Shown: piece after piece, positions 631 through 50,134 of the stretch | Position numbering within the stretch: position 1 is the stretch's first letter | How the letters are laid out: the number at the start of each line of letters is the position of its first letter | Origin: Raillietiella orientalis | Lineage: Eukaryota | Direction: 5' to 3' | NCBI GenBank assembly: GCA_036172245.1 | Contig: JAYWIR010000049.1 | Location: forward strand, 62,001-126,000 | Length of the DNA stretch: 64,000 bases | Made by a program: the position numbers and the translations under genes | Notes under the pieces: model-generated | Seen by the model: only the letters and a program-made list of their open reading frames with translations | Database searches by the model: none | What the model was told of the DNA's origin: nothing

Positions 631-843
631 TCACACGGATTACGCCGGGGCGTTTATTGTAAAATAAACTTCTACAAAGAAGTACGGTGGCTGGACCATT
701 GCTCCAGCCACGCACAAAGAAACAGAGCCGGCCGGGTCACCGGTTCGCGGACCGGTACGGTCCACCACGGCAGCAGGGGGAAGGGGGAAAAACAAAAAAC
801 AAAACAAAAAAGAAAAGAAAAGTTGGGAGGGTAAGGGAAGGGA

Positions 844-4420: not shown

Positions 4421-4434
4421 TACTGCTGGGAAGA

Positions 4435-6087: not shown

Positions 6088-6197
6088 CGCTGCCTGATCG
6101 ACCACCGAGCCACACGACGCTTGCACTGGGATAGACTTTCTGGCACGAGGAGAACCGAGAAAACACGTCCACCCTGTAGCACGCAAGGCGGTCGATT

Positions 6198-24151: not shown

Positions 24152-27100
24152 TCACCCGGCTACGCCCGGGCGTTTATTCATAAACTCGACATGCGTGGTA
24201 CAAAGCCCCACCACGGCCGTAAACACAGGACCTGTCGAAACTGCGGGACGCAGCCCGGCGTGGCACTCCCCGACAGCAAAGGGGGATGGGGATAAGACAA
24301 AAAGAAAAGATAAAAAGAAACAAGCAAAAAGAAGCTGGAGGGCAGGGAAGGGATCACTGGTCGCTGTGAGGAAGGGCCATCCGTCGAACGAAGCACTCGA
24401 GCTCTGTCTGCATATTCCCCAGTTGGGGCCATCCGGCAGCTCTTCGCAAGAAGCTTTGGGCATACGGGATGACATCCCTCGCCTGTGGAGCCACTCCTTC
24501 GTTGTTGGCGTCGCTGCATGCCGCCACGATGCCACGGACGCAGCACAAGGCTGCGATGGCTGCGGCTGGCTGCAGTGCGTCCTTCACGAAGAGGGGCCGA
24601 GGAAAGTCTCTGGGGGTGCTGTCTGTAGGGAGCCCGAGGGTCGTCCCGAACCATTCCCAAAGTGGTCGGAGGGCTGCACAATCCACAATAAGGTGAGGGA
24701 GAGACTCCCGCTCCCCGCACCTGGCACACGCATGATCCAAAGCTCCGCTCGTCCAGTGAAAGCGGCGCGCGTTGCAGGGTAGACCCTAGTGCAACAGGAG
24801 CAACGCCGACTCATGCCACTTGAAGGGCAGGATCCTGGATTCCTTCATCACCGAGGGCCACTTCAGCTCATCCCTGGGGATGACGAGCAGCTCGCCCCAT
24901 CTTAATAATCCTCGCGGCTGGAAGCTCGGGGTCGTGGCGTCGGCCAGTTCTCCTGTTGTCCAGCCGTTAATCAACTTCTTGCGTCCCTCGATGCAGCAGG
25001 GGACTTGATACCTTGGCGTCCGGCTGCTGTGAAGTGCCATCCTCAGGAAGGGCAGCGCCGAAGATAGGCAGGTCGTCTCTGCCCTCGTGCATATTGCTGG
25101 ACTCTCCAGGAGAATCCGCAGCGTGCAGCGGGCGTAAAGGCTGCATCGGAGACGATTCCACGTTCCGTGGCTCCTCTGGTTAACCGCTGCCCACGTTCCG
25201 ATATTCTACTACAGTCAGGCGGGGGAGTTGGCGGGGCAGCAAACCATCCAGCTGTTCTCCTTGGCCAATGTTTCCATGCGCCCGAGCAGTAGGCCGAATC
25301 GTCACATCTTCCGGCAACGGCTCAGAAGAAAAGATGCGAGTATATCGCACCCGGACACACGGCTGGCCAGGAGGCGGGCCGGAGTGCACCAAGGGGTGCT
25401 CCACATCTTCGCTGCGATGGCAAGCGTTCGCCACCGCAGCAGCTTCTTCACGCGCTCCAGCGTCAGGAGGCCAAGACAGCCGTCCCGACGCGGAGCGCAC
25501 AAGTCCTTCAGAGGGACTCGGGGCCTCCCCTTGTCCCAAAGGGCGATACGGAGGAGGTCCTTCGTCCTCTTCTTGGATTCCAAGGTGGGGGGGCAAACGA
25601 AAAGCAAGGGGCGGAGGATGGGGGCCGCAAAGGCGTTCCAAACCGCGGCCCGTTCCGGCAAGTGGAACTTGCCTTCCAGGAACGGGCCTATCGCCGTCTC
25701 GACTTTTTGAAGGCAGCAGGACCACGCTTCCGCAGGGAAGTAGTCCCCCAACGGCACACCAAGGTACTTAAAGCACTTCGCCGAGGGGATCCCCAGACGG
25801 AACCAGTCCTGCTGTCCTTCCCACGCCGCACCTATTGGCACAACCGACGACTTCGCGCTGTTAACCTGCAGTCCGGTCCCGCGGCTGAGCAGATCGCAGA
25901 AGTGTCCGACCGCCTTTGCCAGGGTGGACATTGGCAACAAGAGCAGAAGATCGTCGGCGTACGCTGCTACGGCGGGCGTGCCGGGGCACGAGCTCGGCAA
26001 TGGGGCCAAAGTCATCCTGTACGCTCTCAGCACCAGCTCAAAGTAGGTGCTGAAGAGCAGGAGGTTGAGGCTATCTCCCTACCTTATGCCCCGCCGCACC
26101 GGCACGCCATACACTCTGTAACCACTGAAAGAGACGGTAATCATCGCATTCCGCCAGCAAGAGCGCAAGTAGGAAATCAGGGAGGGTGGGAAGCCCATGC
26201 GACCCAGAAGCTCCAAGAGGAGTTCCTGGTTTTCACAGTCGAACGCTTTGTGGAGATAAACTGCGAGCGTTAGGGCCTGTTCCCCCGCCCGGGGCTCCCT
26301 TCCCAGTCCGGCTGGCGGCCCCAATGTGGGGTTGCCGACCTTCCCTATCCCTTTCTTCTCTCTTCTCTGCAGGTGCACCCATGTGCTTGCGAAGAAGAGT
26401 TTGGCATCCATACTTCGCCCGGGAACAGCATAAGTCTGCTTCGGAGTAATTACGGATTCTGCCACCTGCCCCAGACGGGAAGCCCATACCCTGCTATCAA
26501 CTTGGCGTCCGTATTTACGATCGTGATCGGAAGCCAGTTTTTTAAATTCCTGAGGTCTCTTCCTTTCGGAAGGAGCCTCACTCTGGCTGACCGAAACGAG
26601 GCGGGAACATCGCCTTCGTCTCGGATCAGCCTGATCAACTTGAGCAGCAGGGGTGCCAGCTCTTCCGCAAAGCTCTGAAAGCACTATGCGGGCAAGCCGT
26701 CTTCCCCTGGAGCTTTACGCCTCTTGATTCCTTTGATACCGGCGAGATTTTCGCCAGTGGTAAAAGGCTCGTCGAGGTTTTCCATCTCCTCCTCCCCTAT
26801 TGCCAGGGCGCCATCCGGAATCAAGCGCCGAGAGTCGTTTCGATTGGGGGCTCCCTGGCGTAAAGCGAGGAATAAAAACTCCGCACTAGATGCCGTACCG
26901 ACGCCGGGGACGAACATTCCCGGCCCTGGTCGTCCAGCCAGCTGGCCGACCCAGATTGCCAGGCTTGGCGTTCGGCCTCGGCGCGGTACTCGTCCAGGCG
27001 ACGGACATTAGGAGTTCTCTCTAACCTACGAGCCTGTAAGTAGGCCGGATGGTTGCGAGGACCCTCGACGAATCCGGGGGGAAGGCGGTCCAGGGGGAAC

Positions 27101-29641: not shown

Positions 29642-29675
29642 AGTCGACCGCCTTGCGTGCTACAGGTTGGACGTG
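29640..29675 (+). promoter_or_regulatory. Putative internal Pol II promoter: Inr-like GCAGTC plus DPE-like GGACGTG at +28
   Basis: A at 29642 lies 27 nt before GGACG at 29669. GGACGTG (once GGATGTG) is found at all 9 clear 5' ends. Confidence 0.5.
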
Positions 29676-29751
29676 TTTTCTCGGTGCTCCTCGTGCCAGG
29701 AAGCCTCCCCCAGTGCAAGCGTCGTGCGGTTCGGTGGTCGATCAGGCAGCG

Positions 29752-31407
29752 ATGCCTGACGCGACCACCAGGGATGGCCAGGGGGTAACGCTGCCCTCAG
29801 AGGCGATGGAGAGCCAGGGGGCGGTGGCAACGTCGCCCACTGAGGCTTTGGAGGTGGGGGCATCCGCCCTCACAGAATCGGTGCCCGCTGCAGCGCGGGC
29901 GTGGAGCGCCGTTGTGTCGGCGCCATCGCCTGCAGCGGCGGCGGAATTGTCGGCCTCTGTAGAGGAGGGTTGTACCCCTCCTCTACAGAGGAGGGATGTA
30001 CAATTTATTATCTTTAGAGAGCGCGCGCGCCTTCTCGAAGGGCATGCGCGCTCTCGAAGAGAAAGAGGAGGAGCTCAGCGCTATGACCATCCCCAGCGGG
30101 GGTGAGTACGTTGAGGTCATCTGCAAACATGCAGAGCTGGCCCAACGACTGCTTAGAACCCCCGTTGTGATGAGGACGCGCAGGCTCCTCCCCACTACGG
30201 CGGACCGCAGCATGGTGGTCCACCTGTTAGGTGTTAAAGCGCGAATGCGCAAGGAACAGGTTCGCGCCGCGTTGGAGGAATACGGAACGGTCCACGCGCA
30301 GTGGACGAAAGTTGTTCCTTTCGAGGACTACACGGGGCTGCAACACGGCGTCACTGCTGCGCGCGTCACCGTTCGGGAGTGCTGCACTCTTCCCCACAAA
30401 CTGGTGGTAGAAGGCGAAACCGTCGACCTTTGGTATGTGGGGAAGCCGAAACACTGTGGCTTCTGCAATAAGTCGGACCAACTCAAAAAGAAATGTCCCA
30501 ATGTGCAGTGCCATGTATGCGGCACAATGGGTCACACGAGGGAGGTGTGCCCAAAAGAAGCAGTGCGGGTGGTTTCCAAGAGAAACCTTAAAAAACGCGC
30601 CCTGCTTTTGCTGAAAAGGCTGGCGGCGAAAGCTGCCGCGAAGGCTGTGTCACCCGCGCCCAAGACCCAGGCCGCAATCGAGACCCGGCGGCCAACGCCG
30701 GAAAAGTTGAGGAAGTCGGTCAGGAGACTGGGTGGCAAGTGGCAACGTCCAAAAAATCAAAGAAGCAGAGGAGGATGGAAAAGAAAATCGCCTTCCAACA
30801 GAAGAAGAAAGAGCAGGGTAGCGCGATAATTAAAGAGTTCAGCGTCGTTGTCAAACGCGTTCTCGATGTTGCCGAACGCTGCCGGGAAGAACTCCTTGCT
30901 ACCGATGACCTCCTTTCTGTTGACACTGTCAACAGCGAGGGGTGCGAGGCGGCGGCGGTGTCCGTCATCGACACCACCATCGATGACGTAGCCTTCGTGC
31001 GAGCCTCAGAGGAGCTGGTAGCTTCGGTGCAGCCAGAACTCTGCATGGCTGGCAAGAAGGCCATAAGGAGTCCGGCCTCCCCTCAGGAGTCCCACACTTC
31101 CGACCCCGAGGTGGCGGCCGGAAACGCCGACTCCGTTTCCACGGCACCGCGCAAGAAGTCTGGAAGTAAGTCCAGAAAGCCAAGGAAGCTCGTCTCCACC
31201 GTCGAAGGGGGAGAGATGGTTTCCGGAAGCGAGGGTGCCATGAGCGTGGGAAATTCTCGGGACCCGTCGCCCGAGAGACTCCCACGCACGGACAAGGAGG
31301 GGATGGAGGGGGTGGAGGCCAAACAGGTGCCTCAGGTGCCTGAGAAGGCCAAAACCTCCATCGACATCCCACCCGCCTCGCAAGAGGCGGGCTCTCCCAC
31401 ACCTTAA
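29752..31407 (+). pseudogene. A3 ORF1 (frameshifted)
   Basis: ORFs 29536-30105, 29996-30829 and 30739-31407 join; contains zinc knuckles. Confidence 0.85.
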
Positions 31408-31421
31408 TCCTCCCAGCAGTA

Positions 31422-34400
31422 ATGCCGGGAATCTCCTCCCGCCGTCGTCTGCGCATCGTCGTTTGGAACGTGAACGGCATGACAGACGCCGGCAGGACAC
31501 GAGACATGGCCGTTCTTCTCGAGTCCTACGACCTTGCGCTGCTGCAGGAGATCCACATGATCTCTGCAGAGCAAGTGCAACAGATCAAAGAGATCTCCGG
31601 TGGACGGCTATGGTACAGGTGTGGGAGAGCGGAAAGTTGCAGTGTCGCCTACCTGCTTCGGCCAGCCGTCGAGGCCGCGGCCCGGGGCGCACGGTTCGAC
31701 GATCACGGTGGTGTCGGCCAGCTGACTCTCAGGTGGTCCGACTCGATCGTTCTGATCGTCACGAAGGTGTACGCACCGAGCAGCAAGGACCTGATAAACA
31801 GGAGGGCGAGGAAAGAGTTTTTTCTTGCCCTCCGGCGAGACTGGCTGACCGAAGCAGGCGTGCGGAATGCCCATCTGGTTGCAGGCGATTACCAAGTTCG
31901 CCTGAAACCATATGGGCAGAATACCGAGCGTGACCTGGTCAACGAGGTGTGCATGGCGGTGCACACCTGGAATTTGTTGGTCAGTGCACCGGGGATGGAA
32001 GGCAGCATTGACCACGTGTTTCTTGACGAGAACCTGTGTCCTCGCGTGGGTAGGCGCGGCAAGTTACCGTGCGAGCTGTCCGACCATCGCCCGCTAGTCC
32101 TCGAGATCCATCCGCGCGACAAAGGCCCCCCCTCTTCAGCGTGGCGTCACCCAGGGGACTGGCTGAACTCCCGAACGCGGCGGAACATCTCCGCACGTTC
32201 ATGCGCAGCTTCAGGCTGGATTGGGACCGCTTCAAGCAGTCGGTCCAGGAGTTCTGCGACCAGTTCCCTCTGCACCGCCTACCTACGGGTTTTGGGATCC
32301 GGGTCCGTAACGAACGAGCCTACCTGCAGGCTTGTCGTTACGCCAGGACCCCCGACATCCGCAGGCAGGCGGAATACAAAGCGGGAGCCGAGAGGCAAGC
32401 CTGGCAGTCCGGATCGGCCAGCTTACTAGACGATCAGGGCCAGTAGCACTCGGCACCTACCCAAATCCACGGCCTGCTGCGGAGTTACTACTCCTCCCTG
32501 TATGCCAGTGCACTTCCGGAGAGGAACGTCTCACGACTCCTGCTTCCGGAAGGCGCTCCAGCGATCGAGGAGGAGCAGAGAAAGACCCTCGACGAGCCTT
32601 TCACGATGGACGAGATCCTCTCGGCCATCGGAAAGCTCAAGAGGCGAAAGGCTCCAGGGGAGGACGGCCTGCCCGCGGAGTTTTATCAAACTTTCGCAGC
32701 TGAGCTTTCTACCCTGGTACAGCAACTCACCTTGCTGATACGGGAAACAGGTGACGTGCTCGCCTCGTTTCGTTCGGCAAAGGTGTGGCTCCTCCCTAAG
32801 GGAGGAAATCTGAGGAGCATGAACAACTGGCGTCCCATCACAATAGTGAATGCGGACGGCATATTGATAGCCAAGATGTAGGCAGAGCGACTGGGACGGG
32901 TTGCCAACATCTTCATCAGCACGGAACAGACATATGCTGTTCCCGGGCGAAGCATGGAAGCGAACCTCTTCCACGCTTCCTCCTGGCTAGAGCTCCAACA
33001 TGAAAGAAGCTTGGTGCGCAGCCGGAATTGCGGGACGTGCGCCGGCAAGGAGTTGGATAGTCGGGTGGGGGAGGGAGCCCTTGTGGTCGATATCGAATTG
33101 CGAAAAGCATTCGATTGTGTCGAACAGAATCTCCTTCTGGAGCTTCTGGAACGCTTGGACTTCCCGGCCTCATTAGTGGTATATCTGAGCTCCTGAAGGC
33201 GCGACGCGCTCATCATTACTTTCAGCGAGCAGACCGTGCACGGCGTGCCGGTGCGGCGTGGGATCCGGCAGGGAGACAGCCTGAGCCCCTTGCTCTTCAG
33301 TACCTACTTTGAGTTGGTATTGTAACCGTACGGGGGATCTCTGGCGCACCTGCGGCACGACTGTGGCGGTACGCCGACCGTTTCAGCATACGCGGACGAC
33401 CTTCTGCTGCTGCTCCCTATGTCCACCCAGGCTGCGGCGGTCGAGGAGTTCTTCGACCTGCTGCATCGGGGAACCGAACTTAAGGTGAACAGGGCAAAAT
33501 CGTCCGTGATGCCAGTTGTTGCGGCCTGGGCAGAGCAGCAGGACTGGGTCCGTTTGGGGATCCCCACGGTGAGGTACTTCAAGTACCTTGGTGTGCCGTT
33601 GGGAGACTACTCCCCTGCGTTAGCGTGGTCCGGCCGCCTTCAAAAAGTAGAGACGGCCATCTGCCCGTTCCGAGGCGGCAGGGTTTTCCTCCCTGAAAGG
33701 GCCGCGGTTTGGAACACGTTCGCGGCTCTTCTCCTCCGCCACCTGCTTTTCGTTTGCCCCCCACAGAGAGGATTAAAAAGCGGACAAAGGATCTCCTCCG
33801 TATTGCCGTTTGGGGCAACGAGAGGGCCCGAGTCCGCTTAAAGGACTTGTGTGCTTCTCGTCGGGATGGTGGTCTGGGCCTCCTGACGCTGGAGCGGCTG
33901 GGGCTTCAGCTCCAGTTCCGCTTGTCGGCACACGTTGTAGAGTTGTGGTGCACCTGTTGGTGCGTCTCTGCACGTCTCCTTCTCCAGCAAGCCACCGGCA
34001 AGACGGGACTGACGTCGTTTCTTACACTCCGTCGCCGCGTCAACCGATGCGGACTCCAGCTACGGAGGGTGGCTGCGCTGTATCGCATAAACACAGAATT
34101 GCTAACTTGTCGCCCTTTGAACGGTAGTCCCTGGTTGCAGGAAACCGTTCGAACGTGGAAACAATACGGTATGCAACGCTCCCAACAGGAAAGAAGGTTC
34201 CTGTTTGGGGGTTACAGAAGTTGCACGCTTCGCAAGATCCTGGAGGATCCACAGAAGAGAGCGTTGGCAGGAAGAATCCACCTGGCTGCTGCGCTGCTCT
34301 CCCTGATAAAAGATCTGTACAGCGATGTTGCGGTGAAGTGGGTGGTTACAGTAACAATCTCCAGAAAGGAGAATAAGATAGGAGAGTGAAAGACGGGCCA

Positions 34401-34986
34401 GTTAACATACGCTGCGACCCCGAGTACGCCTCTCAATGGAATTTTGCGCTATGGCGCGCTGCTCGATGTTCCCATTGAACATCTGAAGTGGCCCACGGGG
34501 CTCATGAACACTTTCGCCCTTCCCTTCAAATGGCAGGAGTCCGTTCTTCTGTTGCAACACTGGGGACTCCCCTGCAACGCCCGCCGACACCACTGGACCT
34601 GGGGAGCGGTGGACCCCTATTGCGTCAGGTTTGGGGAACGGGATTCCCTTCCCCACCTGCTAGTGGATTGTGTTGCCCTTTGGCCCCTTTGGTTTCGCTT
34701 TGCCGCGGACATCGGAATCCCCTGCGGCTACCCCAGGGACGCACTGAAAGTCCTATTCGTTGCCAACGCCCTTCGGCCAGCGTCCTCGTTAGCAGCTTTG
34801 TGCTGCCTACGCGGGATCGTCACCGCTTGGAGCAAGGCTACGGGAGGACAACGCGACAAGGGTGCCATCCAGCCAGCCTCCCAGTTTCTGAGGCGGGCGT
34901 CCCGATGGCCCCACCTGGATCCAGGAATAAAGAAGGAGCTCACCTGCATCCTGCAACGGATGCAACGGCCCAACCAGCTGCTGTGA
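31422..34986 (+). pseudogene. A3 ORF2, APE-RT-CCHC (stops and frameshifts)
   Basis: MPGISSRRRLRIVVWNVNG, LQEIH, VYAP, SDH, KAPGEDGLP, WRPIT, RKAFD, QGDSLSP, YADD, KYLG. Confidence 0.9.
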
Positions 34987-35200
34987 TCCCTTCCCTTACC
35001 CTCCCAACTTTTCTTTTCTTTTTTGGTTTGTTTTTTGTTTTTCCCTTTTCCCCCTGCTGCCGTGGTGGACCGTTCACGTCTGCGAACCGGTGACCCGGCA
35101 GGCTCTGTGTTTCTTCGTGCGTGGCTGGAGCAATGGTCCAGCCACCGCACGTCTTTGTAAAAGTTATTTTGCAATAAACGTCCCAGCGAAATCCGGGTGA

Positions 35201-38200
35201 AAATCGAACGCCTTGTGGAGATCGACCGCGACCGCTAATGCACCTGGCGTTCCCTCCTGCCGTCGGCGCCTGTTCTTCTCGCCTGCGGCAGTGACTTTCT
35301 CAGCAGCCTGACTTTGCTGCGCCACAACTTCCTGCAGCAGCTTTCATGAACGCGCGAAAAGGATGTTCGCCTCCATGAATCGTCCCGGAACCGCGTAGGT
35401 TTGTTCCGGACTCACCACAGATTCCGCGAAACATCCTAGCCGCGCGACCCACAGCTTGGAAAAGAACTTGACGTCCGAGTTCACCAAGGTAATCGGACGC
35501 CAGTTGTTAAGCTGACGCAAGTCTCCGCCTTTCGGCAGGAGACGCACCTTCGCTGAGCGGAAGAAATCCGGGACATTCCCGGATTCACTCATCAGCGTCG
35601 CGAGTCTCAGCATCAAGGGAATAAGCTCCACGTCAAAGCGCTGATAAAACTCTCCAGGGAGTCCATCCTCGCCTGGCGCCTTTCGTCTCTTCAGCCCAGC
35701 GATGGCGGACGAAAATTCATCCGCCGTGAAGGGCCCGTTGAGACGTTCGCCATCCTCCTCGCCGACAACACGAGCATCCTGAGACAGGAGTATCTCAGAG
35801 AGAATATCCTCCGTCGGGGATTCCGCGTTCAGCGAGGAGTAGTAGCGTCTCACAATGCGGCGTACTTCGGCTGGGGCCGAACATTCCTGGCCCTTGCCGT
35901 CCAACAGGCATGCTGCTCCGGACTGCTAGACCTGGCCCTTGGCCCTCGCCTTGTACTCCGCTAGACGCCCGACATCCACGCGTCTCGAAAACGTGCGGAC
36001 CTGCACAGAGTCTCTACTGTCGGCCACGACCTCTCCGAAACCGCGTGGAAGCCGGTGCAAGGGGAATTGGCGGCAGAACTCGCGGACAGATCTTTTGAGA
36101 TCGTCCCAGTCCACAAGTTCTTGAATGGCAAAGCCTCGGAGGTGTCCACGTAGATGCTCCGCAGCCTCCGGTTGGCTCAGCCAATCCGCCTGCATCCTCC
36201 AGTTTTGCAACGGAGGCCCCCTGCCTGGCGGAAGGATCTCAAACACCAACCTGTTGTGGTCAGAAAGCCTAGTCAAAAATCTTCCTCTCCTACCCACACG
36301 CGAATGCAGGTTTTCATCGAGAAGAACGTGGTCGAGCGATATTTACTTCCCAGGTTCGTTGGCCATCAAGTTGGCGGCGTGCACGGACGCCCACATCTCG
36401 ATGGGCAGCGCGCGCTCCCTCGGGCGGCTCCAATCGTCGGAGAGCAGGCGGACGTTGAAGTCCCCAGCGACGAGAGGCGCCACTTGGAAGCCGGAGTTGT
36501 TGAGCCAGTGGCTCTGCCCCTCACCGAAGGAAGGTACTCTTTCTTCGAGGTAGCGAGAGCCACTCGGCGCGTAGACGTTCGTAACGACGAGATCGATGGA
36601 CTCGGACCACTTGATGACAAGCTGGCCTATCCGTCCGTCGTCGTCGAAACGAACACTACGCACTGCTTTCGCCATTTTTCCTCTTACGAGAAACGCGACG
36701 CCGCACGTGTTTGCTCCGCCGCACCGCCAATGTAGCATTCCGCCTGCGCTCTAGTCGATTTCGGAAATTACGTGAATCTCCTGCAGGAGCACGAGGTCGA
36801 AGGGTCGCAAGGCGTTGGCTACTTATCGCCTCTTCTCGTCGTTCTGTAGTCCGTTCACGTTCCAACACGTTACGGACAGACGACGAAAAGACGCGATTCC
36901 CCGCACTACTGTTGGGAAGGTGGCGGCTTTTCGCTCCCTTTATCCGGCGAGCAGACGGCGAGCAGCACGACTGGCTGGAGAAGACGGTCGCCACCTTCCT
37001 CCGTCGTGCTGCATGCATGTAATACCTCCACGCCAGGCTTAACCCCGTCGGGTTTCGTGTACACTTCGCGTTGCTTCGCGGCGAGCGTTGCCTGGCTGCT
37101 TACTTTCGATCGGCGCGCACACGCTTTTGAACGAGTTGTCCTCGTCTCGTTGATCGGAAGGGCATCCATTTCGGAGTCCGACCGGCGCATGTTCGATCGG
37201 GTTTCGGTCTTCCGCGAAGTAGTGACAGGTTCTGCTGGATTAACAGCTGTCCTGCTTTCGTTTTCCGTCACCAGAGCATCGCTTTTGGTGACGGCTGCTT
37301 TCCCGGCGCGCGCGTTCTCAGCGTGCTCACGCGCAGTTGCACGAGGGACCTTTGCTGAAGTCTTCTTTACTTCATTACGGTTCCTCACTTCGCGTGGCGC
37401 CGTAAATGGAGATTGTGCTCCATTGCCATCTTTGAAGCCATCTGCGTCTTTGGACGGGAGCACTTTCGATGGCTCCGACACAATCGTCATGGACGCTGCC
37501 TTCGGAAGGGCTTTTAATCCCTTCGTTGGCATGGCATCCGCGCCAGTCTAGAGCTTGCTCTCCGACTGCGACGGCGTGAGATTTTTCTCCGCTTTCGCGG
37601 TGTTGGATTCCGACGCGGATTCTTTTTGCCGACTTTCGAAGTCGACATGGCACAAACCTTCTTAGCCGATTTCAGCTTCTCAGCCACTGCAGGAGGTGAA
37701 GGAATGGATCTGACGGTACTGGAAGTGTCCTTACCGCCGTTGTCCATTGGCGTCGCCGCCGGTTGCTCGAACTCCGAGAGAGCTGGGCGTGCTTGGGAAG
37801 GACAGCTATTGCGCCTAGGGGGACTTACCATTGCCCCGGATTCCCCGCACTCTTTCTTTTGCGGCTTCCCTGCCGCGAGCAGGGGCGCGCAGGGCTTCGC
37901 GTGCGAGGTTTCCTGCTGCTTTGGGGCGACATTCCGCCTCGCGTTTTTACGGAATTTCTGCCGTGATGTCTCCAGGTTTTTCGCAGATTTTTTCTTTTTA
38001 TCCGCGCTTTGTTTTTTAAGATGGAGCTCCGCGGCTGCCTTTTTCCGCAAAAGATCCGGGCAATTTTTCAATTGGTGCCCAGATAGTTTGCAATAACGGC
38101 ATTTTCCAGAGGGGCATTTATCCAAACAATGCCCCTCCTTCCCGCCTTGCTCGCACGTTCTTTTTTGCCCACGTACCACAGGTGAACGACCGTGTCTTTC

Positions 38201-41224: not shown

Positions 41225-41238
41225 GGGAGTCGGCGTAG

Positions 41239-43596
41239 TCACCCGGGTACGCCCGAGGCGTTTATTAATAAACTCTACATGCGTGGTACAAAGCCCCTTC
41301 ACGGCCGTAAACACAGGACCTGTCGGGACAGCGGGACGCAGCCCGGCGTGGCACTCCCCGACAGCGAAGGGGGATGGGGATAAGACAAAAAGAAAAAATA
41401 AAAAGAAACAAACAAAAAGAATTTGTAGGGCAGGGAAGGGATCACTGGTCGCTGTGAGGAGGGGCCATCCGTCGAACGAAGCCCTCGAGGTCAGTCTGCA
41501 TATTCCCCAGTTGGAACCATCTGGCAGCTCTTCGCAAGAAGCTTTGGGCGTACAACATGACATCCCTCGCCTGTCGACCCACTCCTTCGTTGTTGGCGTC
41601 GCTGCATGCCGCCACGATGCCACGGACCCAGCACAAGGCTGCGATGGCTGCGGCTGGCTGCAGTGCGTCCTTCACGAAGAGGGGCCGAAAAACGTCGCTG
41701 GGGGTGCTGCCCGTAGGGAGCCCAAGGGTCGTCCCGAACCGTTCCCAAAAGGGTCCCAGGGCAGCACAATCCACAATAAGGTGGGGAAGCGACTACCGCT
41801 CCCCGCACCTGCCACACGCAGGATACACAGCTCCCCTCGTCCAGTGGAAGCGGCGCGCGTTGCAGGGTAGACCCCAGTGCAACAAAAGCAACGCCGACTC
41901 TTGCCACTTGAGGGGAAGGATCCTGGATTCCTTCATCACCGGGGGCCACTTTAGCTCATCCCTGGGTATGGCGAACAGCTCGCCCCATCTTAATAATCCT
42001 CGCTGCTGGACGCTCGGGGTCGTGGCGTAGGCCAGTTCTCCTGTTGTCCAGCCGCTGATCAACTTCTCGCGTCCCTCGATGCAGCAGGAGACTTGCCACC
42101 TTGGCGTCCGGGTGCTGTGAAGTGCCCTCCTTACGAAGGGCAGCGCCGTAGCTGGGCAGGTCGTCTCTGCACACGTGCATCTTGCTGGACTCTCCAGGAG
42201 ATACCGCAGCGTGCAGCGGGCGTAGGGGCTGCATCGGGACGATTCCACTTCTCTTGGATTCTCTGGTTAACCACTGCCCACGTTCCAATATTCTCCTCCA
42301 GCCAGGCGGGGGAGTTGGCGGGGCAGCAAACCATCCAGCTGTTCTCCTTGGCCAATGTTGCCATGCGCTTGAGGAGTAAGCCGCATCCTCGCATCTTTCG
42401 GCAACGGCTCAGAAGAAAGGACGCGAGTCCATCGCACCGGGGCACACGGCTGGCCAGGAGGCGGGCCCTCGTGCACCAAGGGGTGCTCCACATCTTCGCT
42501 GCGATGGCAAGGGTTCGCCACCGCAGCTGCTTTTTCACGCGCTCCAGCGTCAGGAGGCCAAGACCGCCGTCCCGACGCGGAGCGCACAAGTCCTTCAGTG
42601 GGACTCGGGGCTTCCCCTTGCCACAAAGGTTGATACGGAGGAGGTCCTTCGTCCTCTTCTTGGATTCCAAGGTGGGGGTGCGAACAAAAACAAAGGGCGG
42701 TGGATGGGGGCCGAGAAGGTGTTCCAAACCGCGGCCCGTTCCGGCAAGTGAAACTTGCCTTCCAGGAACGGGCCGATCGCTGCCTCGACTTTTTGGAGCC
42801 AGCTGGACCACGCTTCCGCAGGGGAGTAGTCCCCAAACGGCACACCAAGGTTCTTGAAGCACCTCGCCGAGGGGATCCTTAGACGGAACCAGTCCTGCTG
42901 TCCTGCCCAAGCCACACCTATTGGCACAACCGACGACTTCTCCCTGTTAACCTGCAGTCCGGTCCCGCGGCTGAGCAGAACGAAGAAGTCTCCGACCGCC
43001 TTAGCCGGGGAGGACATTGGCAACAAGAGCAGAAGATCATCAGCGTACGCTGCAACGGCGGACGTGCCGGGGCAGAAGCTCGGCAATGGGGCGAGGGTCA
43101 CCCTGTACGCTCTCAGCACCAACTCAAAGTAGGTGCTGAAGAGCAGGGAGCTGAGGCTATCGCCCTGCCTTATGCCCCGCCGCCCCGGCATGCCATGCAC
43201 CTTGTGACCGCTGAATGAGACGGTAATTATCGCATTCCGCCAGCAAGAGCGCAGGTAGGAAATCAGGAAGGGTAAAATGCCCATGCGACCCAGGAGCTCC
43301 AAGAGTAGTTACTGGTCTACACAGTCTAACGCTTTGTGGAGATCGACTGCGAGCGCTATAGCCGCCTTATCCGCCCGAGATTTCCTTCCCAGCCCGGCTG
43401 GCGGCCCCAATGTGGGGTTGCCGACCTTCCCTATCCCTTTCTTCTCTCTTCTCTGCAGGTGCACCTATGTGCATGCGAAGAAGTGGTTGGCATCCATACT
43501 TCGCCCGGGAACAGCATAAGTCTGCTCCGGGCTAATTATGGAATTGGACACCTGCCCCAAACGCGACGCATACAGCCCGGCAATCAACTTGGCGTC
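41239..43596 (-). mobile_element. Lineage-B element B5, 3' part, head-to-tail with B4, cut at DAKL
   Basis: QGDSLS, YADD; terminus at 41239-41266; begins at GAC GCC AAG TTG. Confidence 0.85.
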
Positions 43597-46500
43597 CGAG
43601 CTGTCCGACCATCGCCCGCTGGTCCTCGTAGTGCATCTGCGCGACAGAGGACCCCCTCGTCAGCGTGGCGTCTACCAAGGGACTAAGTGAAGCTCCCGGA
43701 CTCGGCGGAACTCCTCCGCACGTTCATACGGAGCTTGAGGCTGTGGACACTCCAGGATTACGACCGCTTCAAGTGGTCGGTCCAGGAGTTCTGCGACAAG
43801 TTCCCTCTGCACCGCCTACCTACGGGTTTTGAGACCGTGAACTTTAACGAACTTGCGTACCTGCAGGCCCGTCGTTACGCCAGGACCCCCGACATGCGCA
43901 GGCTAGCGGAACACAAAGCGAAAGCACAGAACCAAGCCTGGCAGTCCGGATCGGCCAGCTTGCTGGACGATCAGGGCCAGGAGCACTCGGCACCCGCCCA
44001 AATCCGCGGCCTGCTGCCGAGTTACTACTCCTCCCTGTATGCCAGGGCACCTCCGGAGAGGAACATCTCACGACTCCTGCTTCCAAAAGGCGCTCGAGCG
44101 ATCGGGGAGAGGCCGAGAAAGACCGTCGACCAGCCTTTCACGATGGACGAGATCGTCTCGGCCATCGGAAAGCTCAAGAGGCGCAAGGCTCCAGGGAAGG
44201 ACGGCCTGCCCGCGGAGTTTTACCAAACCTTCGCGGCTGAGTTTACCCCCCTGGTACAGCAACTCACCTTGCTGATAGGCGAAACAGGTGACGTTCCCGC
44301 CTTGTTTCGTTCGGCAAAGGTGCGGCTCCTCCCTAATGAAGGAGATCTGAGGAGTATGAACAACTAGCGTCCCATCACAATAGTGAATGCGGACGTCAGG
44401 TAGCTAGCTAAGGTTTGGGCAGAGAGGTTGTGACGGGTTACCAACATCTTCATCAGCTTGGAACAGACATATGCTGTTCCCGGGCGAAGCATGGAGGCAA
44501 ACCTGTTCCACGCTTCCACTTGGCTAGAGCTCCTACATGAAAGGAGCTTGGGGTGCAGCCAGAATTCCGGTGCGTACGCCGGCAAGACGTTGGATGGTCG
44601 GGTTGGGGAGGGAGCCCCTGCGGTCGCAATCGACTTGCGGAAAGCGTTCTCTTGCGTCGACAAGACTCTCCTTCTGTAGCATTTGGAAAGCTTGGGCTTC
44701 CCGGCCTCATTAGTGACCTATCTGCGCTCCTGCTGGCGCGATGCGCTCATCAATGTTACTTTCAGTGGGCAGACCGTGCACGGCGTGCCGGTGCGGCGTG
44801 GGATATAACAGGGAGACATCCTTAGCCCTTTGCACTTCAGTACCTACTTTATGTTGGTACTGAGAGCGTACAGGGGAACTCTGGCGCACCTGCCGCTCGA
44901 CTGTGCCGGTACGCCGGCCGTTTCAGCGTACGCGGACGACCTTCTGCTGCTGCTCCCTATGTCCACCCCGGCTTTTTGGGGAACTGGACTTACGGTGAAA
45001 TGGGCGAAGTCGTCCGTGATGCCAGTTGGTGCGACGTGGGCAGGGCAGCAGGACTGGGTCCGTCTGGAGATCCCCACGGTGAGGTACTTCAAGTACCTCG
45101 GTGTGCCGTTGTGGGACAACTTCCCTGCGGAAGCGTGGTCCTGCTGCCTCAAAAAAGTAGAGACGGCGATCGGCCCGTTCCGAGGCGGCAGGTTTTTCCT
45201 CCCTGAAAGGGCCGCGGTATGGAACACGTTGGCGGCTTCTCTCCCGCATCCTGCTTTTTGTTTCACCCCCGCAGAGAGAATTCAAAAGCGGAAAAAGGAC
45301 CTCCTTCGTATCGCCCTTTGGGGCAACGAGAGGGCCCACGTCCGCTTAAAGGACTTGTGCGCTCCTCTTTGGGACAGGGGTCTGGGCCTCCTGACGCTGG
45401 AACGGCTAAAGCTTCAGCTCCTGTTCCGATTGTCGGCACTAGTTCCAGAGTTGTGGTGCACCAGTTGGTGCGTCCCTGCACGTCTCCTTTTCCAGCATGC
45501 CACCGGCAAGACGAGACTGACCTCGTTTCTTGCACTCCGTCGCTGCGTCAGCCGATGCAGACTTCAGGTACGGATGGTGGCTGCGCTGTCACGGAAAAAC
45601 CCAGGATTGGTCACCTTTCGTCCTTTGAACGGTAGTGCCTGGTTGCAGGAAACCGTTCCAACGTGGTTACAGTTCGGCATGAAACGCTTTGAACAGGAGC
45701 GAAGGTTCCTATTTGGGGGTCGCAAAAGTTGCACGCTTTGCGACTTCCTGGAGGATCCAAAGAAAAGAGCGTGGGCAGGAAGAATCTCCATCGCTGCTGC
45801 GCTGCCCTACCTAATGGAAGATCTGGACAGCAATGTTGCAACAAAGTGTGAGGTTACAGTAACAATCTCCGGAAAGGAGAAGAAGATAGGAGAGTGGAAG
45901 ACGGGCCAGTTAACAGACGCTGGGACCCCGAGTACGCCTTCCAATGGACCTCTACGCTGGGGCGCGCTGCTCGACGTTCCCATTGAACGTTTTAAGGGGA
46001 TCCCGGTACTAATAAACACCTCCACCCTTCCCTTAAAATGGCAAAAGTCGGCTCTCCTGTTGCAGCACTGGGGACTGCTGTGCAACGCCCGCCGAAACCA
46101 CTGGACCTGGGGAGCGGTAGACCCCAATTTCGTCAGGTGTGGTGAACGGGAGTCCTTCCCCCACCTGCTAGTGGATTGTGTTGCCCTTCGGCCTTTTTGC
46201 TTTCGCTTTGCCGCGACCATCGGAATCCCCTGCGGCAACCCCAGGGACGCACTGAAAGCTTTCTTCGTTGCCGACGCCCTTCGGCCAGCGGCCTCGTTAG
46301 AAGGTTCGTGCTGCCTACGCGCGATCGTCAGTGCTTAAAGCAAGGATACGGGAGGACAACGCAACCAGGGTGCCATCCAGCCAGCCTCCCAGTTCCTGAG
46401 GAGAGCGTCGCGATGGCCCCTTCTAGATCCAAACATGCAGCAAGAGCTTGATGGCATCCTGCAAAGGATGCAACGACCCCACCAGCAACTGTGATCCCTT

Positions 46501-46710
46501 CCCGTACCCTCCCAGTGTTTTCCTTTCTTTTTGTTTTGTTTTTTGTTTTTTCCCTCTTCCCCCTGCTGCTGTGGTGGACCGTACCGGTCTGCGGACCGGT
46601 GACCCGGCAGGCTCTGTGTTTTTTCGGGAGTGGCTGTAGCAATGGACCAGTCACTGTACGTCTTTGTGAATGTTTATCTTAAAATAAACGCCCCGGCGAA
46701 ATCCGGGTGA
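43597..46710 (+). mobile_element. Lineage-A element A4, lacking its 5' part (starts at EN SDH)
   Basis: ORFs 43687-44367 and 44830-46338 (YADD); terminus at 46683-46710. Confidence 0.88.
46683..46710 (+). terminator. Representative conserved 3' terminal signal: AATAAA plus CCCGG-loop-CCGGG-TGA
   Basis: 13 copies, one at each intact 3' end. The function is inferred. Confidence 0.7.
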
Positions 46711-47372
46711 AAATCGAACGCCTTGTGGAGATCGACCGCTACCGCTAAGGCAACCGGCGCTTCTTCAGGCCAAATGCAACGACGCCTAGCTCTGGCAGCC
46801 GCAAATGCGGTTGCCTGGCATTCGTGCTCCACGCAACGTTGCAGCTCGAGCCACGTGCGCGCGAATAACAGATTCGCCTCCATAGAACGCTCGGGAAAAG
46901 CGCAAGACTGCTCCGGACTTACCACGGATCCAGCGATCCTGCCAAGGCGCGGGAGCCACATCCTAAAGAACAACTTGACGTCCTCATTCACCAAGGCGAT
47001 GGGGCGCCAGTTGCTTAAATGGCGCATGTCTCCGCCTTTCGGCAAGAGACGCACCTTTGCTGGGCGAAACGAGGCCGGCACATTGCTCGTCTCTCGCATC
47101 AGCGCAGAAAGCCTAAGCACCAGGGGGATGAGTTCCGAGGCGAAGCACTGGATGAATTCCGCAGGCAGACCATCCTCACCTGGCACCTTGCGCTTCTTTA
47201 GGCCCGCTATGGCAGAAGACACTAGTTCCGACGTGAAGAGCAAGTCAAGAGTGGCGCGTTCCTCTTCGTCGTCAGCAGGGGAATTTGCCGGCAGAAGCAG
47301 CTTCGAGAGACAGCGTTCCGTCGGCTCCCTTGCATACAACGAGGAGTAGTAGCGCCTTAGCAGGCGGCGAAC
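46711..47372 (-). pseudogene. Lineage-E ORF2 fragment (E2), between the VRR and KAFD sites
   Basis: ORF 46674-47441 is homologous to 59510-60172. Confidence 0.85.
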
Positions 47373-47387
47373 GGCGGACGTTGAGTA

Positions 47388-49291
47388 AACTTTGAGTTGG
47401 TACTGGGAGCGTACAGGGGAACTCTGGCGCACCTGCCACATGAATGCGCCGGAACGCCTGCGGTTTCAGCATATGCGGACGACCTCCTGCTACTACTCCC
47501 TATCTCCACCCCGGCTTCGGCGGTCGAGAAGTTCTGCGACCTGCTGAATGGAGGAACCGGGCTTACGGTGAACAGGGCGAAGTCGTCCGTGATGCCAGTT
47601 GGTGTGGCGTGGGCAGGGCAGCAGGACTGGGTCCGTTAGGAAATCCCCACGGTGAGGTAATTCAAGTACCATGGTGTGCCGTTGGGGGACTACTCCCCTG
47701 CGGAAGCGTGGTCCGGCTGCCTCCAAAAAGTAGAGACGGCTATCGGCCCGTTCCGAGGCGGCAGCTTTTTCCTGCCTGAACGGGCCGCGGTTTGGAACAT
47801 GTTCGCGGCTTCTCTCCTCCGTTCCCTACCTTTTGTTTGCCCCCCCACAGAGAGGATCAAAAAGCGGACGAAGGACCTCCTCCGTATCGTTCTTTGGGGC
47901 AACGGGAGGGTCCGAGTCCGCTTGAAGGACTTGTGCGCTCCGCGTCGGGACTGTGGTCTCGGCCTCCTGACATTGGAGCGGCTGGAGCTGCAGCTCCAGT
48001 TCCGGATTTTGGCACTTGTCCCGGAGTTGTGGTGCACCTGTTGGTGCGTCCCTGCACGTCTCCTCCTTCAGCAAGCCACCGGCAAGACGGGACTTACGTC
48101 GTTTCTTGCACTCCATCAAAGCCGCATCAACCGATGTGGGCTTCAGCTACGGAGGGTGGCTGCGCTGACAAGGAAAAATCAAGGATGGATCACCTGTCTC
48201 CCCGCGAACGGTAGTGCCTGGTTGCAGGAAACCGTTCGCACGTAAGGACAGTTCGGCATGCAACCCTCCCATCAGGAACGAAGGTACCTGTTTGGGTGTT
48301 ACAGAAGTTGCACGCTCCGTGAGATCCTGGAGGATCCTAAGAAGAGAGCGTGGTCAGGAAGAACCCCCCTCGCTGCTGCGCTGGACTCCCTAGTGGAACA
48401 TCAGGACAGCGATGCTGCGGCGAAGTGGGAGGTTACAATAAAAATCTCCGGGAAGGAGAAGAAGCAGAGAAAGTGTAAGACGGGCCAGCTAACGGATGCT
48501 GCGACCCCGAGTACGCCTCCTAATGGACTTCTGCGCTGGGGAGCGCTGCTGGATGTTCCCATTGAACATCTGAAGTGGCCACCGATTCTTATGAACACTT
48601 TCATCCTCCCCCTAAAATGGCAAGAGTCGGCATTCCTGTTGCAGCACTGGGGACTCCCCTGCAACGCCCGTCGACACCACTGGACCTGGGGAGCGGTGGA
48701 TCCCAATTGTGTAAGGTGCGGGGAACGGGAGTCCCTCCCCCACCTCCTAGTGGATTGTGTTGCCCTTCGGCCCTTTTGGTTCCGCTTTGCCGCGGCCATC
48801 GGTATCCCTTGCAGCAACACCAGGGACGCACTAAAAGCCTTCTTCGTTGCCGACGCCCTGCGGCCAGCGTCCTCGATAGCAGCTTTGTGCTGCCTTCGTG
48901 GGATCGTCGCCGCCTGGAGCACGGCGACGGGAGGACCTAGCGATCAGGAAGCCATCCAGTGCGCCTCCGAATTCCTGAGGAGGGCGTCGCGATGGCCCCA
49001 CCTGGATGTTCAGAACAAACAAGAGCTTGTCAGCATCCTGAGAGGGATGATGCGGCCCCAGCAGCAACAGTGATCCCTTCACTTTTCCTCCCACCCTTTG
49101 TTTTTTTTTTTTGTCTAGTTTTTTTCTTTTTTCCCTTTCCCCTGCTGCCTTGGTGGACCGTAGCGGTGTAGAAACCGGTGAATTGGCAGGCGCCGTGGTT
49201 CTTAGCTTCTTGCTGGAGCATTACCACAGCCATTAATAATTTGTTTACAAAGTTTATTTTTTTAATAAACGACACGGAGAAATCCGGGTAA
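47388..49291 (+). mobile_element. A-subfamily element A5, 3' part
   Basis: YADD; CVRCGERESLPHLLVDC (ORF 48258-49073); divergent 3' UTR; terminus at 49264-49291. Confidence 0.85.
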
Positions 49292-50134
49292 AAATCGAAT
49301 GCCTTATGGAGGTCGACTGCGATTGCTAAGGCCCCCTTTCCCGCATGAGGGTCCCTACCCTGTGCCACTGGCGGCCCCAAAGTAGGGTTGCAAATTTTCC
49401 CTTTCCCTTCTTTCTTACTCCGCTGCGCGTGTATCCATGTGCTCGCGAAGAAGAGGTTGTCCTCCATGCTTCGCCCGGGAACAGCGTAAATCTGCTCCGG
49501 GCTAATTATGGAATTGGACACCTGCCCCAATCGCGACGCATACAGCCCGGCAATCAACTTGGCGTCCGTGTTTACAATCGTGATCGGACATCAATTGCAA
49601 AATTTCCTGAGGTCTCCTCTCCTCGGGAGGAGCCTCACTCTGGCTGACCGAAACGAGGCGGGAACATCGCCTTCGTCTCGGATTCACCTTGTCAACTCGA
49701 GCACCAGGGGGGCCAGCTCTTCCGCGAAACTCTGAAAGAACTCCACGGGCAAGCCGTCCTCCCCTGGCGCCTTACGCCTCTTGAGCCTTTTGATACCGGC
49801 GAGAATTTCGCCGGTAGTGGAAGGCTCATCGAGGCTTTCTCTCTCCTCCTCCCCTATCGCCACGGAACCACTCATGAGCAATCGCCGCGAAGCGTCTTGT
49901 TCGGGTGGTGTTTTGGCGTAAAGGGAGAAATGAAAACACCGCACGAGATTCCGTACCGCAGACGGGGACGAACGTTCCCGGCCCAGGTCATCCAGCATGC
50001 TGGCTGACCCGGATTGTCAGGCTTGTCGCTCGGCTCCGGCGCGGTATTCTGCCAGGCGACGGACACTGGAGTTCCTCTCGTGACGACGCGCGTGCAAATA
50101 CGCGCGTTGGTTGCGAGCCTCTTCGCCGAATCCC
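49292..50134 (-). pseudogene. B-like ORF2 fragment (B6), between the GFG and KAFD sites
   Basis: GFGEEARNQRAYL..KAPGEDGLP..DAKLIA..AVDLHKAFD. Confidence 0.85.

What the first reader, a model, noticed from the sequence alone, without database searches (positions are those of the whole stretch)
35173..35226. Lineage A appears to carry its own copy of the target after the 3' hairpin (scaffold plus guide-like tail)
Seen: AAATCGAACGCCTTGTGGAGATCGAC follows the hairpin identically in three hosts (605-630 rc, 35201-35226, 46711-46736). Uninterrupted host sites differ: B has CAGTCGAACGCTTTGTGG (~26237) and E has CAATCGAACGCCTTGCGG (59511). Inference: the first ~16-20 nt are written from element RNA. 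A constant hairpin followed by a lineage-specific target-matching tail suggests RNA-DNA pairing helps prime target-primed reverse transcription or helps choose the site. That could make targeting partly reprogrammable.
Basis: partly seen in the sequence, partly recalled or inferred. Interest (0 to 1): 0.88.

Follow-up and report, generated by a model that had tools for sequence, protein, structure and literature searches.

The report
Retrotransposon carrying copies of its target
A family of jumping genes (LINEs) that lands in one conserved spot of the reverse-transcriptase gene of rival LINEs appears to bring short copies of that spot along at both of its ends, a natural variation on the target-matching RNA ends already known from the ribosomal-DNA elements R1 and R2.

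Summary
The 26-nt string follows the element's 3' end exactly at 3 places and nowhere else.

The window is a nest of endonuclease-plus-RT LINEs. Lineage A inserts, antisense, into the codons for RT motif A (AVDLRKAFDCV) of other LINE lineages. The "tail" is the right-hand copy of a 16-nt target duplication plus the next 10 host bases.

Both copies of the target look inherited from a donor element, not from the local host:
- In A1, which sits in a B-like host, about 213-220 nt of 5' flank are donor-type. The flank then switches sharply to B-type.
- In A2 only the last 16 nt of the 5' flank are donor-type.
- On the 3' side, two independent insertions in B-like hosts are donor-type at positions 3 and 12 and host-type from position 27 on.
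- The left and right copies differ at the same two positions in independent insertions.

So "carries its own copy of the target" is supported, strongly at the 5' end and moderately at the 3' end. Whether the tail pairs with the target, guides site choice or is reprogrammable is untested. Target-matching RNA ends are already known from R1 and R2. This is a new variant of a known kind and moderately interesting.

The parts
29658..35200 (+). A3: full-length lineage-A LINE body (reference copy, 5543 nt). It holds an ORF1-like CCHC region, an endonuclease-like region and RT pieces in several frames, so it is degenerate.
29642..29657 (+). Left copy of the 16-nt target at the A3 5' junction (AGTCGACCGCCTTGCG).
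35173..35200 (+). Conserved 3' terminus: AATAAA, a short 5-bp stem-loop and GGGTGA. The motif is present at 11 LINE 3' ends of several lineages.
35201..35226 (+). The reported 26-nt tail: the right copy of the 16-nt target (to about 35217) plus the next host bases GAGATCGAC.
631..6181 (-). A1: full-length lineage-A copy, 87-93% identical to A3 along the body, inserted in a B-like host.
605..630 (-). Tail of A1. It is donor-type at positions 3 and 12, and B-type from position 27 on.
6182..6401 (-). Co-transferred 5' flank of A1: left target copy at 6182-6197, plus donor-type flank out to -213/-220. Beyond that point the flank is B-type.
11021..16227 (-). A2: lineage-A 5' part with an internal deletion and a B-type 3' part (recombinant). 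Its 3' end abuts another LINE's 5' end.
16228..16243 (-). Left target copy at the A2 5' junction. It is donor-type at 4 of 4 informative sites. The flank beyond about -21 is like the h22838 host family.
43585..46710 (+). A4: 5'-truncated lineage-A copy (reference positions 2403-5543).
46711..46736 (+). Tail of A4, in an E-like host.
47387..49291 (+). A5: older 5'-truncated lineage-A copy (reference positions 3645-5542).
49292..49317 (+). Tail of A5 in a diverged B-like host. It has 3 private changes but is donor-type at positions 3 and 12.
59511..59536 (+). Uninterrupted target site in lineage E. On the minus strand it encodes VDLRKAFDC, which is RT motif A.
26236..26261 (+). Uninterrupted target site in lineage B (cAGTCGAACGCTTTGTGGAGATAAAC).
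43322..43347 (+). Uninterrupted B-like target site (cAGTCTAACGCTTTGTGGAGATCGAC).
22837..22862 (+). Uninterrupted target site of the h22838 host family (cAATCGAACGCTTTACGCAGATCGAC).

Best explanation
Lineage A is a site-specific LINE with an AP-type endonuclease and an RT. It inserts in antisense orientation into the DNA that encodes RT motif A (AVDLRKAFDCV) of other LINE lineages.

Each copy is bracketed by two imperfect copies of a 16-nt piece of that target. The left copy is A(A/G)TCGACCGCCTTGCG. The right copy is AATCGAACGCCTTGTG. The reported 26-nt tail is the right copy plus 10 further host bases.

These copies are not a fresh duplication of the local host site. They are inherited from the donor element together with a variable stretch of donor flank, that is, flanking co-conversion.

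The most likely route (inferred): new copies are reverse-transcribed from transcripts that begin upstream of, and run a little past, the donor element.
- At the 3' side, target-primed reverse transcription starts at or beyond target position 12-26, so the right copy is written from RNA.
- At the 5' side, the cDNA end, which is complementary to the donor's upstream flank, anneals to the homologous upstream part of the new host RT gene. The join resolves at a variable point, 16 to about 220 nt out.

This is the logic known for R2 and R1, here in a different LINE type with a different kind of target.

Shown: the anatomy, the independence of the hosts and the donor-type flanks. Inferred: an RNA rather than a DNA template, the nick positions, and any pairing role of the tail.
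For: 1. Target and anatomy. All 4 lineage-A 3' ends abut the same site, and all 3 lineage-A 5' ends abut its left part. The site encodes motif A within the RVT_1 match of the E ORF. An Exo_endo_phos domain is present in related copies.

2. Independent hosts. Beyond the junctions the hosts of A1 and A3 are only 46-66% alike on the left and 36-54% alike on the right. The two element bodies are 87-93% alike.

3. 5' co-transfer in A1. From -213 to -1, 49 of 60 informative sites are A3-type, 6 are B-type and 5 are neither. From -220 to -896, 213 of 229 are B-type, 5 are A3-type and 11 are neither. Flank identity between A1 and A3 is 213/231 = 92%, the same as the body.

4. 5' co-transfer in A2. 4 of 4 informative sites in the last 16 nt are A3-type, against 82 of 326 further out. 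The next three sites (-21, -22, -28) are host-type.

5. 3' side. A1 and A5, both in B-like hosts, are donor-type at positions 3 and 12. From position 27 to 119, A1 has 18 host-type sites of 18 and A5 has 15 host-type and 3 neither. No uninterrupted site in the window has the exact tail.

6. The left and right copies differ at the same two positions (GACCG/GAACG and TTGCG/TTGTG) in both A1 and A3. A fresh duplication at each insertion would not give this.

7. A5 and A4 are 5'-truncated, a hallmark of reverse transcription from the 3' end. A5 still has the donor-type tail.

8. A inserted into a host of the h22838 family, whose typical site differs from the tail at 4 of 25 positions. That argues against an absolute sequence requirement as the cause of the identical tails.
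Against: - The 3' evidence rests on only two informative positions in two insertions. Position 3 could partly reflect where priming started in a short A run.
- The E-like case is a single CpG transition, which is within background divergence.
- AATAAA lies 22 nt before the junction at all 11 3' ends. If it is the poly(A) signal, most RNAs would end at or within a few bases of the junction and would lack a 12-16 nt tail.
- In the classical R1/R2 annealing model the tail pairs with the primer and is not written into DNA, so writing requires a nick or primer trimming further downstream. That is unproven.
- No RNA data exist. No second genome or further copies could be obtained.
- The A3 flank shows no switch, so the donor type is defined from few copies.
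- A long-read assembly chimera in this repeat nest cannot be excluded with these tools.
Confidence: 0.5

Rival explanations
1. The tail is plain host DNA. The three copies are identical because the site lies in the most conserved RT motif, and because the element's endonuclease or RT only accepts host copies that already carry this exact sequence (target selection). Only the 5' side is carried.
For: The site encodes motif A and is similar in all lineages. E differs from the tail at only 1 of 25 positions. The positions nearest the cut are the ones most likely to matter for recognition. The AATAAA position suggests RNA ends near the junction.
Against: The host of A1 is 88-96% identical to B around the site, yet it differs from both uninterrupted B-like sites at exactly the two donor-diagnostic positions and nowhere else in the 26 nt. 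The more diverged host of A5 shows the same two changes. Two of 4 A 3' junctions lie in B-like hosts although 2 of 2 empty B-like sites lack those bases. A also entered a host of the h22838 family, whose typical site has 4 mismatches to the tail.
Confidence: 0.2
2. The spread is at the DNA level. The endonuclease breaks an empty site and the break is repaired from an occupied site elsewhere (homing-like gene conversion), or later ectopic gene conversion between nested copies produced the mosaics. No RNA tail is involved.
For: Co-conversion tracts of variable length on both sides (16 to about 220 nt on the left, 12-26 nt on the right) are what double-strand-break repair gives. The window is full of segmental duplications and recombinant copies, such as the 10.4-kb tandem spacing, the inverted duplications and the recombinant A2.
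Against: A5 and A4 are 5'-truncated and their left flanks are not the target site, which fits reverse transcription and not two-sided homologous repair. A5 nevertheless has the donor-type tail. The right tract is short in all 4 copies while the left tract varies, an asymmetry expected for target-primed reverse transcription. Flank and body of A1 and A3 are equally diverged, so no recent conversion is visible.
Confidence: 0.2
3. One reading: the tail is a guide. Its pairing with the target chooses or primes the site, so swapping tails would retarget the element.
For: The tail is carried, as argued in the best explanation. R2 templates need at least 4 nt of target sequence at the 3' end to pair with the primer (PMC13580325, passages). 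R1Bm needs downstream target sequence for accurate initiation (PMC7265360, passage).
Against: Nothing in the sequence shows pairing. In known systems the protein chooses the site and the tail only sets register. Other lineages with the same 3' terminus sit at different native sites, so specificity tracks the lineage's protein at least as well. If the tail is written into DNA, it cannot be the part that pairs with the primer.
Confidence: 0.12
4. Artefact: the three tails are copies of one event (segmental duplication), or the mosaics are assembly chimeras.
For: Large duplications exist in the window.
Against: The flanks beyond the tail belong to different host families (36-54% identity between A1 and A3) while the element bodies are 82-93% alike. 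The switch points are sharp and collinear.
Confidence: 0.03

Closest known systems
R2 (28S rDNA-specific LINE): template RNA with a target-derived 3' tail and about 28 nt of upstream rRNA at the 5' end
   Same: It is a site-specific LINE whose RNA carries target sequence at both ends. The 3' tail pairs with the nicked target, and the 5' target sequence lets the cDNA anneal upstream for second-strand priming (PMC13580325, passages read). The donor-type flanks on both sides seen here fit that logic.
   Different: R2 has a restriction-like endonuclease and a single ORF, targets rDNA, and is cut from a Pol I co-transcript by a ribozyme. Here the endonuclease is AP-type, a CCHC ORF1-like region is present, and the target is another LINE's RT gene in antisense. 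No Rfam ribozyme was found. Here the right-hand target copy seems to be written into DNA, not just paired.
R1Bm and SART1Bm (AP-endonuclease site-specific LINEs of silkworm)
   Same: Both are AP-endonuclease LINEs with a defined target. Read-through downstream target sequence, or target-like bases at the RNA 3' end, set the start of reverse transcription (PMC7265360, passages).
   Different: Their targets are rDNA or telomeric repeats, which are uniform, so inheritance of donor flanks cannot be seen. SART1 uses a poly(A) tail. No poly(A) tract is present at the junctions here.
Zepp / ZeppL L1-clade LINEs of green algae
   Same: LINEs that nest into existing copies and build dense clusters and tandem arrays (PMC8226300, passages). 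This window has the same look.
   Different: I saw no report of a defined target inside RT motif A, of antisense nesting between lineages, or of carried target copies. The original Zepp paper is not held. Relatedness was not tested. The best named protein hit here is a Tx1 protein at 32% identity.
Tx1 group of target-specific L1-clade LINEs (Tx1L, Keno, Mutsu)
   Same: The nearest named protein is 'transposon TX1 uncharacterized 149 kDa protein' (32% identity over 61% of the query). The group is known for target-specific insertion into repeated sequences, and co-transcription with the target is said to strengthen specificity (PMC4494074, passages).
   Different: Its targets are snRNA or 5S genes, DNA transposons and microsatellites, not LINE RT genes. 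Membership was not tested by a tree.
Flanking-marker co-conversion in intron homing and retrohoming (recalled from general knowledge; no call)
   Same: A mobile element enters a homologous empty site and drags donor flanking markers with it, asymmetrically in retrohoming.
   Different: Those are introns with ribozyme or maturase machinery. Here the mobile element is a LINE.

Membership tests
Non-LTR retrotransposon (LINE) with AP-type endonuclease | Reverse transcriptase domain | tested here: met
   RVT_1 at 2e-22 in the E ORF 58466-60421(-). A weak RVT_1 match (6.4e-5, below the cut-off) in the degenerate A3 copy.
Non-LTR retrotransposon (LINE) with AP-type endonuclease | Exo_endo_phos (AP-like) endonuclease upstream of the RT | tested here: met
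   PF03372 at 7.8e-10 (39.3 bits, cut-off 24.5) in 60452-61243(-) and at 2e-7 in 52122-52760(+). There was no hit in the degenerate A3 copy itself.
Site-specific LINE | All copies sit at one defined sequence in one orientation | tested here: met
   4 of 4 lineage-A 3' ends and 3 of 3 5' ends lie at the motif-A site, antisense to the host. This covers the window only.
Site-specific LINE | Target-site duplication made from the local host site | tested here: not met
   A 16-nt duplication exists, but its two copies differ at the same 2 positions in independent insertions and are donor-type, not host-type.
R2-like co-transcript / homology-assisted insertion | Restriction-like endonuclease and an rDNA target | tested here: not met
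   The endonuclease is AP-type. The target is a LINE RT gene.
R2-like co-transcript / homology-assisted insertion | Template RNA carries target sequence at its 5' and 3' ends | tested here: inconclusive
   Donor-type flanks in DNA fit this, but no RNA data exist: no RNA holder was listed.
R2-like co-transcript / homology-assisted insertion | Self-cleaving 5' ribozyme | tested here: not met
   No Rfam match with E up to 1 in 29400-35400 on either strand. A new ribozyme type would be missed.
L1-type 3' transduction | Carried flank ends in a poly(A) tract and is followed by a fresh duplication | tested here: not met
   There is no poly(A). The tail runs straight into host sequence.
Zepp/ZeppL or Tx1 clade | Phylogenetic placement of the RT/endonuclease | not tested
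   Similarity lists only. The best hits are 28-33% identical L1/Tx1-like proteins, plus one unnamed 61% relative.

The most novel reading that the evidence does not exclude
An AP-endonuclease LINE whose RNA is terminally redundant for a 16-nt piece of its own target. This would be a natural pair of RNA-encoded homology arms. The element would copy itself, plus variable donor flank, into the RT motif-A codons of rival LINE lineages. Its own motif A encodes the same peptide through 8-9 different bases and stays unoccupied. That would make it a hyperparasitic LINE with homing-like co-conversion and self-immunity by synonymous recoding.
Probability: 0.3. Interest if true: 0.7.

Novelty: new variant of a known kind. 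Interest (0 to 1): 0.5.

Why it matters
In R1 and R2 the idea that target-matching RNA ends steer insertion comes from assays, because rDNA targets are uniform and leave no trace of the donor. Here the targets are diverged LINE families, so natural insertions record how much donor flank travelled: about 16-220 nt at the 5' side and about 12-26 nt at the 3' side.

If this is confirmed genome-wide, three things would follow:
- Homology-assisted insertion would be shown to operate in an AP-endonuclease, L1/Tx1-like LINE.
- Tract lengths and nick positions could be read from genomes.
- It would document LINE lineages that parasitise the most conserved codons of other LINEs.

It does not, as it stands, show a programmable guide.

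Tried and rejected
1. I first took the 42 nt shared after the B-type 3' ends (8265-8306 and 24112-24153) for a transduced tail, and the 'ACGCCGA.TCCC' motif for a relic of the motif-A site. Rejected. The stretch is collinear with the host and homologous to a native site in the endonuclease-RT linker of B (around 27047). The pattern count itself was not above chance (6 found, 3.52 expected).

2. The flank of the E 3' end looked target-like. It is native host sequence.

3. No whole genome is held.

4. Pattern scans for the junction or the conserved 3' end found 0 loci in metagenome contigs, genome contigs and viral contigs.

5. Sequencing runs: one DNA(?) run, X1, holding 0.11 of the sampled words; no RNA holder listed.

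6. Laying X1 on 34700-35700 placed 27 contig pieces: none 95% alike or better, 4 at 90-95% and 23 under 90%. None of the 8 pieces listed (of 28) bridges the element 3' end and the tail. One 3755-nt contig matches the host side at 35204-35700 with no listed difference in 35204-35235. No conclusion was drawn from this.

7. RNAalifold on 10 3' ends gave only a 5-bp terminal stem with 0 covarying pairs. Single folds show a strong upstream stem-loop in A1 and A3 (z -2.8 to -4.1) but not in A4 (z -0.57).

8. Rfam: no match.

9. The Zepp 1997 and R1Bm 2005 papers are not held.

10. I did not resolve why A4 and A5 have left flanks from other host copies. Insertion-associated deletion is my guess.
Full report
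**What is in the window.**
- The 64 kb (about 59% G+C) is a dense nest of related non-LTR retrotransposons in both orientations. It contains many direct and inverted repeats of 60-94% identity, a tandem spacing of about 10.4 kb, and a large inverted duplication (16932-20467 against 60401-64000).
- Stop-to-stop frames of the copy at 29658-35200 show a CCHC ORF1-like region, an endonuclease-like region and RT pieces in several frames.
- Pfam finds RVT_1 (2e-22) in an intact 651-aa ORF of another lineage (58466-60421, minus strand) and a CCHC knuckle. It finds Exo_endo_phos in two copies (7.8e-10 and 2e-7).
- The nearest proteins in the large collections are L1/Tx1-like. One unnamed protein is 61% identical. 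The rest are at or below 33%, and the best named one is a 'transposon TX1 149 kDa protein' at 32%.
- No whole genome is held.

**Map.** I used 29658-35200 as the reference (A3) and ran nhmmer over the window. Lineage A has five copies:
- A1: 6181-631 (-), full length.
- A2: 16227-11021 (-), with an internal deletion. Its 3' part is B-type (family D13, 10, 14).
- A3: the reference copy.
- A4: 43585-46710, starting at reference position 2403.
- A5: 47387-49291, starting at reference position 3645.

All lineages share the 3' terminus AATAAACG.CC.GGCG.A..CCGGGTGA. It matches 11 times, against 0.07 expected.

**Check of the observation.**
- The 26-mer is exact at 605-630 (-), 35201-35226 and 46711-46736. 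It has 3 mismatches at 49292 and 2 at the uninterrupted site 59511. None is expected by chance.
- Each of the first four follows a lineage-A 3' end.

**What the tail is.**
- The sequence lies on the antisense strand of the host LINE's RT gene. In E it encodes residues 296-304, AVDLRKAFDCV, inside the RVT_1 match. Calling this RT motif A is my own knowledge, not a tool result.
- At the 5' junctions of A1, A2 and A3 the host ends ...A(A/G)TCGACCGCCTTGCG, directly before the element's first bases TGCTACAGG.
- So the element is bracketed by a 16-nt duplication of the target. The 26-mer is the right copy plus the next ten host bases.
- Lineage A's own motif A encodes AIDLRKAFDCV with 8-9 base differences from the tail in 25 positions. 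It is unoccupied in 4 of 4 copies. 5 of 10 sites in other lineages are occupied. These numbers are small and descriptive only.

**Are the insertions independent?** Yes.
- Beyond the junctions the host of A1 is B-like: 90-100% identity to B in most 50-nt windows from -250 to -900, and 88-96% from +27 to +200.
- The host of A4 is E-like (79-96%). The host of A3 is a third, E-related family. The host of A2 resembles the h22838 copy. The host of A5 is a diverged B-like copy.
- The hosts of A1 and A3 are 46-66% alike on the left and 36-54% alike on the right. The two element bodies are 87-93% alike throughout.

**The 5' side: donor flank travels with the element.**
- The left flank of A1 is 90-96% identical to the flank of A3 from -1 to -200, and only 54-74% identical to B. 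It then switches to B-type.
- Site by site, 49 of 60 informative positions from -213 to -1 are A3-type (6 B-type, 5 neither). 213 of 229 from -220 to -896 are B-type (5 A3-type, 11 neither).
- The shared flank (213/231 = 92%) is as diverged as the body. Flank and body therefore have one history.
- In A2 the last 16 nt are A3-type at 4 of 4 informative sites, against 82 of 326 further out. The next three sites are host-type.
- So the left target copy always comes with the element, with a variable further stretch. The joins are collinear with the host, which points to a homology-guided join.

**The 3' side.**
- Taking the A3 and A4 flanks as donor type and the two empty B-like sites as host type, A1 is donor-type at positions 3 and 12 and host-type at all 18 informative sites from 27 to 119.
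- A5 is donor-type at positions 3 and 12. After that it has 15 host-type sites, 3 neither and 0 donor-type.
- Given two donor-type sites among 20, the chance that they are the first two is 1/190 for each copy.
- For A4 the only difference from E in the tail is a CpG transition, which is within background divergence.
- The written stretch therefore ends somewhere between position 12 and position 26. This is compatible with the 16-nt copy.
- The left and right copies differ at the same two positions in A1 and in A3. Fresh duplications of different hosts would not give that result.

**Mechanism.**
- The simplest reading is that the donor's flanking target sequence is copied with the element. I favour an RNA template for three reasons. 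A4 and A5 are 5'-truncated. A5 still has the donor-type tail although its left flank is not the target. The short fixed right tract against the variable left tract is the asymmetry expected from target-primed reverse transcription.
- This matches what is described for R2: at least 4 nt of target at the RNA 3' end, and about 28 nt of upstream rRNA at the 5' end that lets the cDNA anneal (PMC13580325, passages). It also matches R1Bm (PMC7265360, passage) and the remark that co-transcription with the target strengthens specific integration (PMC4494074, passages).
- One difference matters. If the tail is written, the priming 3' end must lie at or beyond position 12-16, or a mismatched primer must be trimmed. 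Simple annealing of the tail to the primer would leave host bases in place.
- Against a long tail, AATAAA sits 22 nt before the junction in all 11 copies. No RNA data could be had.
- Target selection and DNA-level conversion remain live rivals.

**Other lineages.**
- The same 3' terminus is followed by different native host sequences. E sits in the endonuclease region of an antisense LINE.
- The B/C lineage sits at a site in the endonuclease-RT linker.
- Hence a 'lineage-specific tail' is, for them, just a lineage-specific target.
- The three C-type 5' ends do share one left copy in three different contexts. This hints that carrying the left copy is general.

**Novelty.**
- Nesting of LINEs into their own kind is known for Zepp/ZeppL (PMC8226300, passages).
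- My full-text searches found no description of LINEs aimed at RT motif A of other LINEs, or of donor-flank co-conversion by a LINE. The library lacks most subscription journals, I read passages only and no supplements, and the key Zepp paper is not held.
- I rate this a new variant of a known kind, with moderate interest.

Noticed in passing
57434-57442; 8264-8307; 24112-24154; 50112-50133; 52794-52801; 20705: Each LINE lineage seems to have its own target inside other LINE copies, mostly in antisense. E sits in the endonuclease region. The B/C lineage sits at a site in the endonuclease-RT linker (native form in B near 27047). Two further lineages sit near reference positions 2558 and 2796.
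   Followed up: partly
41218-41240 (-) and 10998-11020 (-): Head-to-tail junctions. A B-type 3' end is followed by a 22-23 nt spacer (a copy of the linker target) and then the 5' end TGGACGTGT of a C-type element. These look like tandem arrays built by re-use of a duplicated target.
   Followed up: partly
11006, 41226, 50133 (5' ends): The three C-type 5' ends carry the same about 20-nt left copy CGCC(G/A)A.TCCCTTGGC(G/A)AG in three different upstream contexts. In the one case inside a host body it differs from the native B form (CGACGAATCCGGGGGGAAG). This is the same behaviour as lineage A's left copy.
   Followed up: partly
2720-2745, 13120-13150, 33098-33123, 44640-44665 (approximate): Lineage A's own motif-A codons give the same peptide as its targets (AIDLRKAFDCV against AVDLRKAFDCV) but differ from the tail at 8-9 of 25 bases. 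None of the four is occupied. This may be self-immunity by synonymous change, or simply divergence.
   Followed up: partly
11021-12338 (-): A2 is a recombinant. Its 5' part is lineage A (82-86% identical to A3), but its last about 1.3 kb and its 3' end resemble B-type copies (73-75%) more than A1 (62%).
   Followed up: partly
43585-43599 and 47371-47387: The 5'-truncated copies A4 and A5 are joined on the left to other host copies, at host positions about 250-650 nt past the target. This suggests insertion-associated deletions or rearrangements.
   Followed up: no
1-18400; 16932-20467 against 60401-64000: There is a tandem repeat spacing of about 10.4 kb (10403 and 10047 nt) and a 93-94% inverted segmental duplication. 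Not all copies in the window are independent events.
   Followed up: partly
58466-60421 (-) and 60452-61243 (-): Lineage E keeps an open 651-aa RT frame and a 263-aa endonuclease frame with good Pfam scores, so it may have been active recently. The lineage-A copies are frameshifted.
   Followed up: no
all 11 LINE 3' ends (e.g. 35173-35178): AATAAA is invariant 22 nt before the end of every lineage's 3' terminus, and no poly(A) tract follows in the DNA. It may be a poly(A) signal or part of a protein-binding 3' motif.
   Followed up: no
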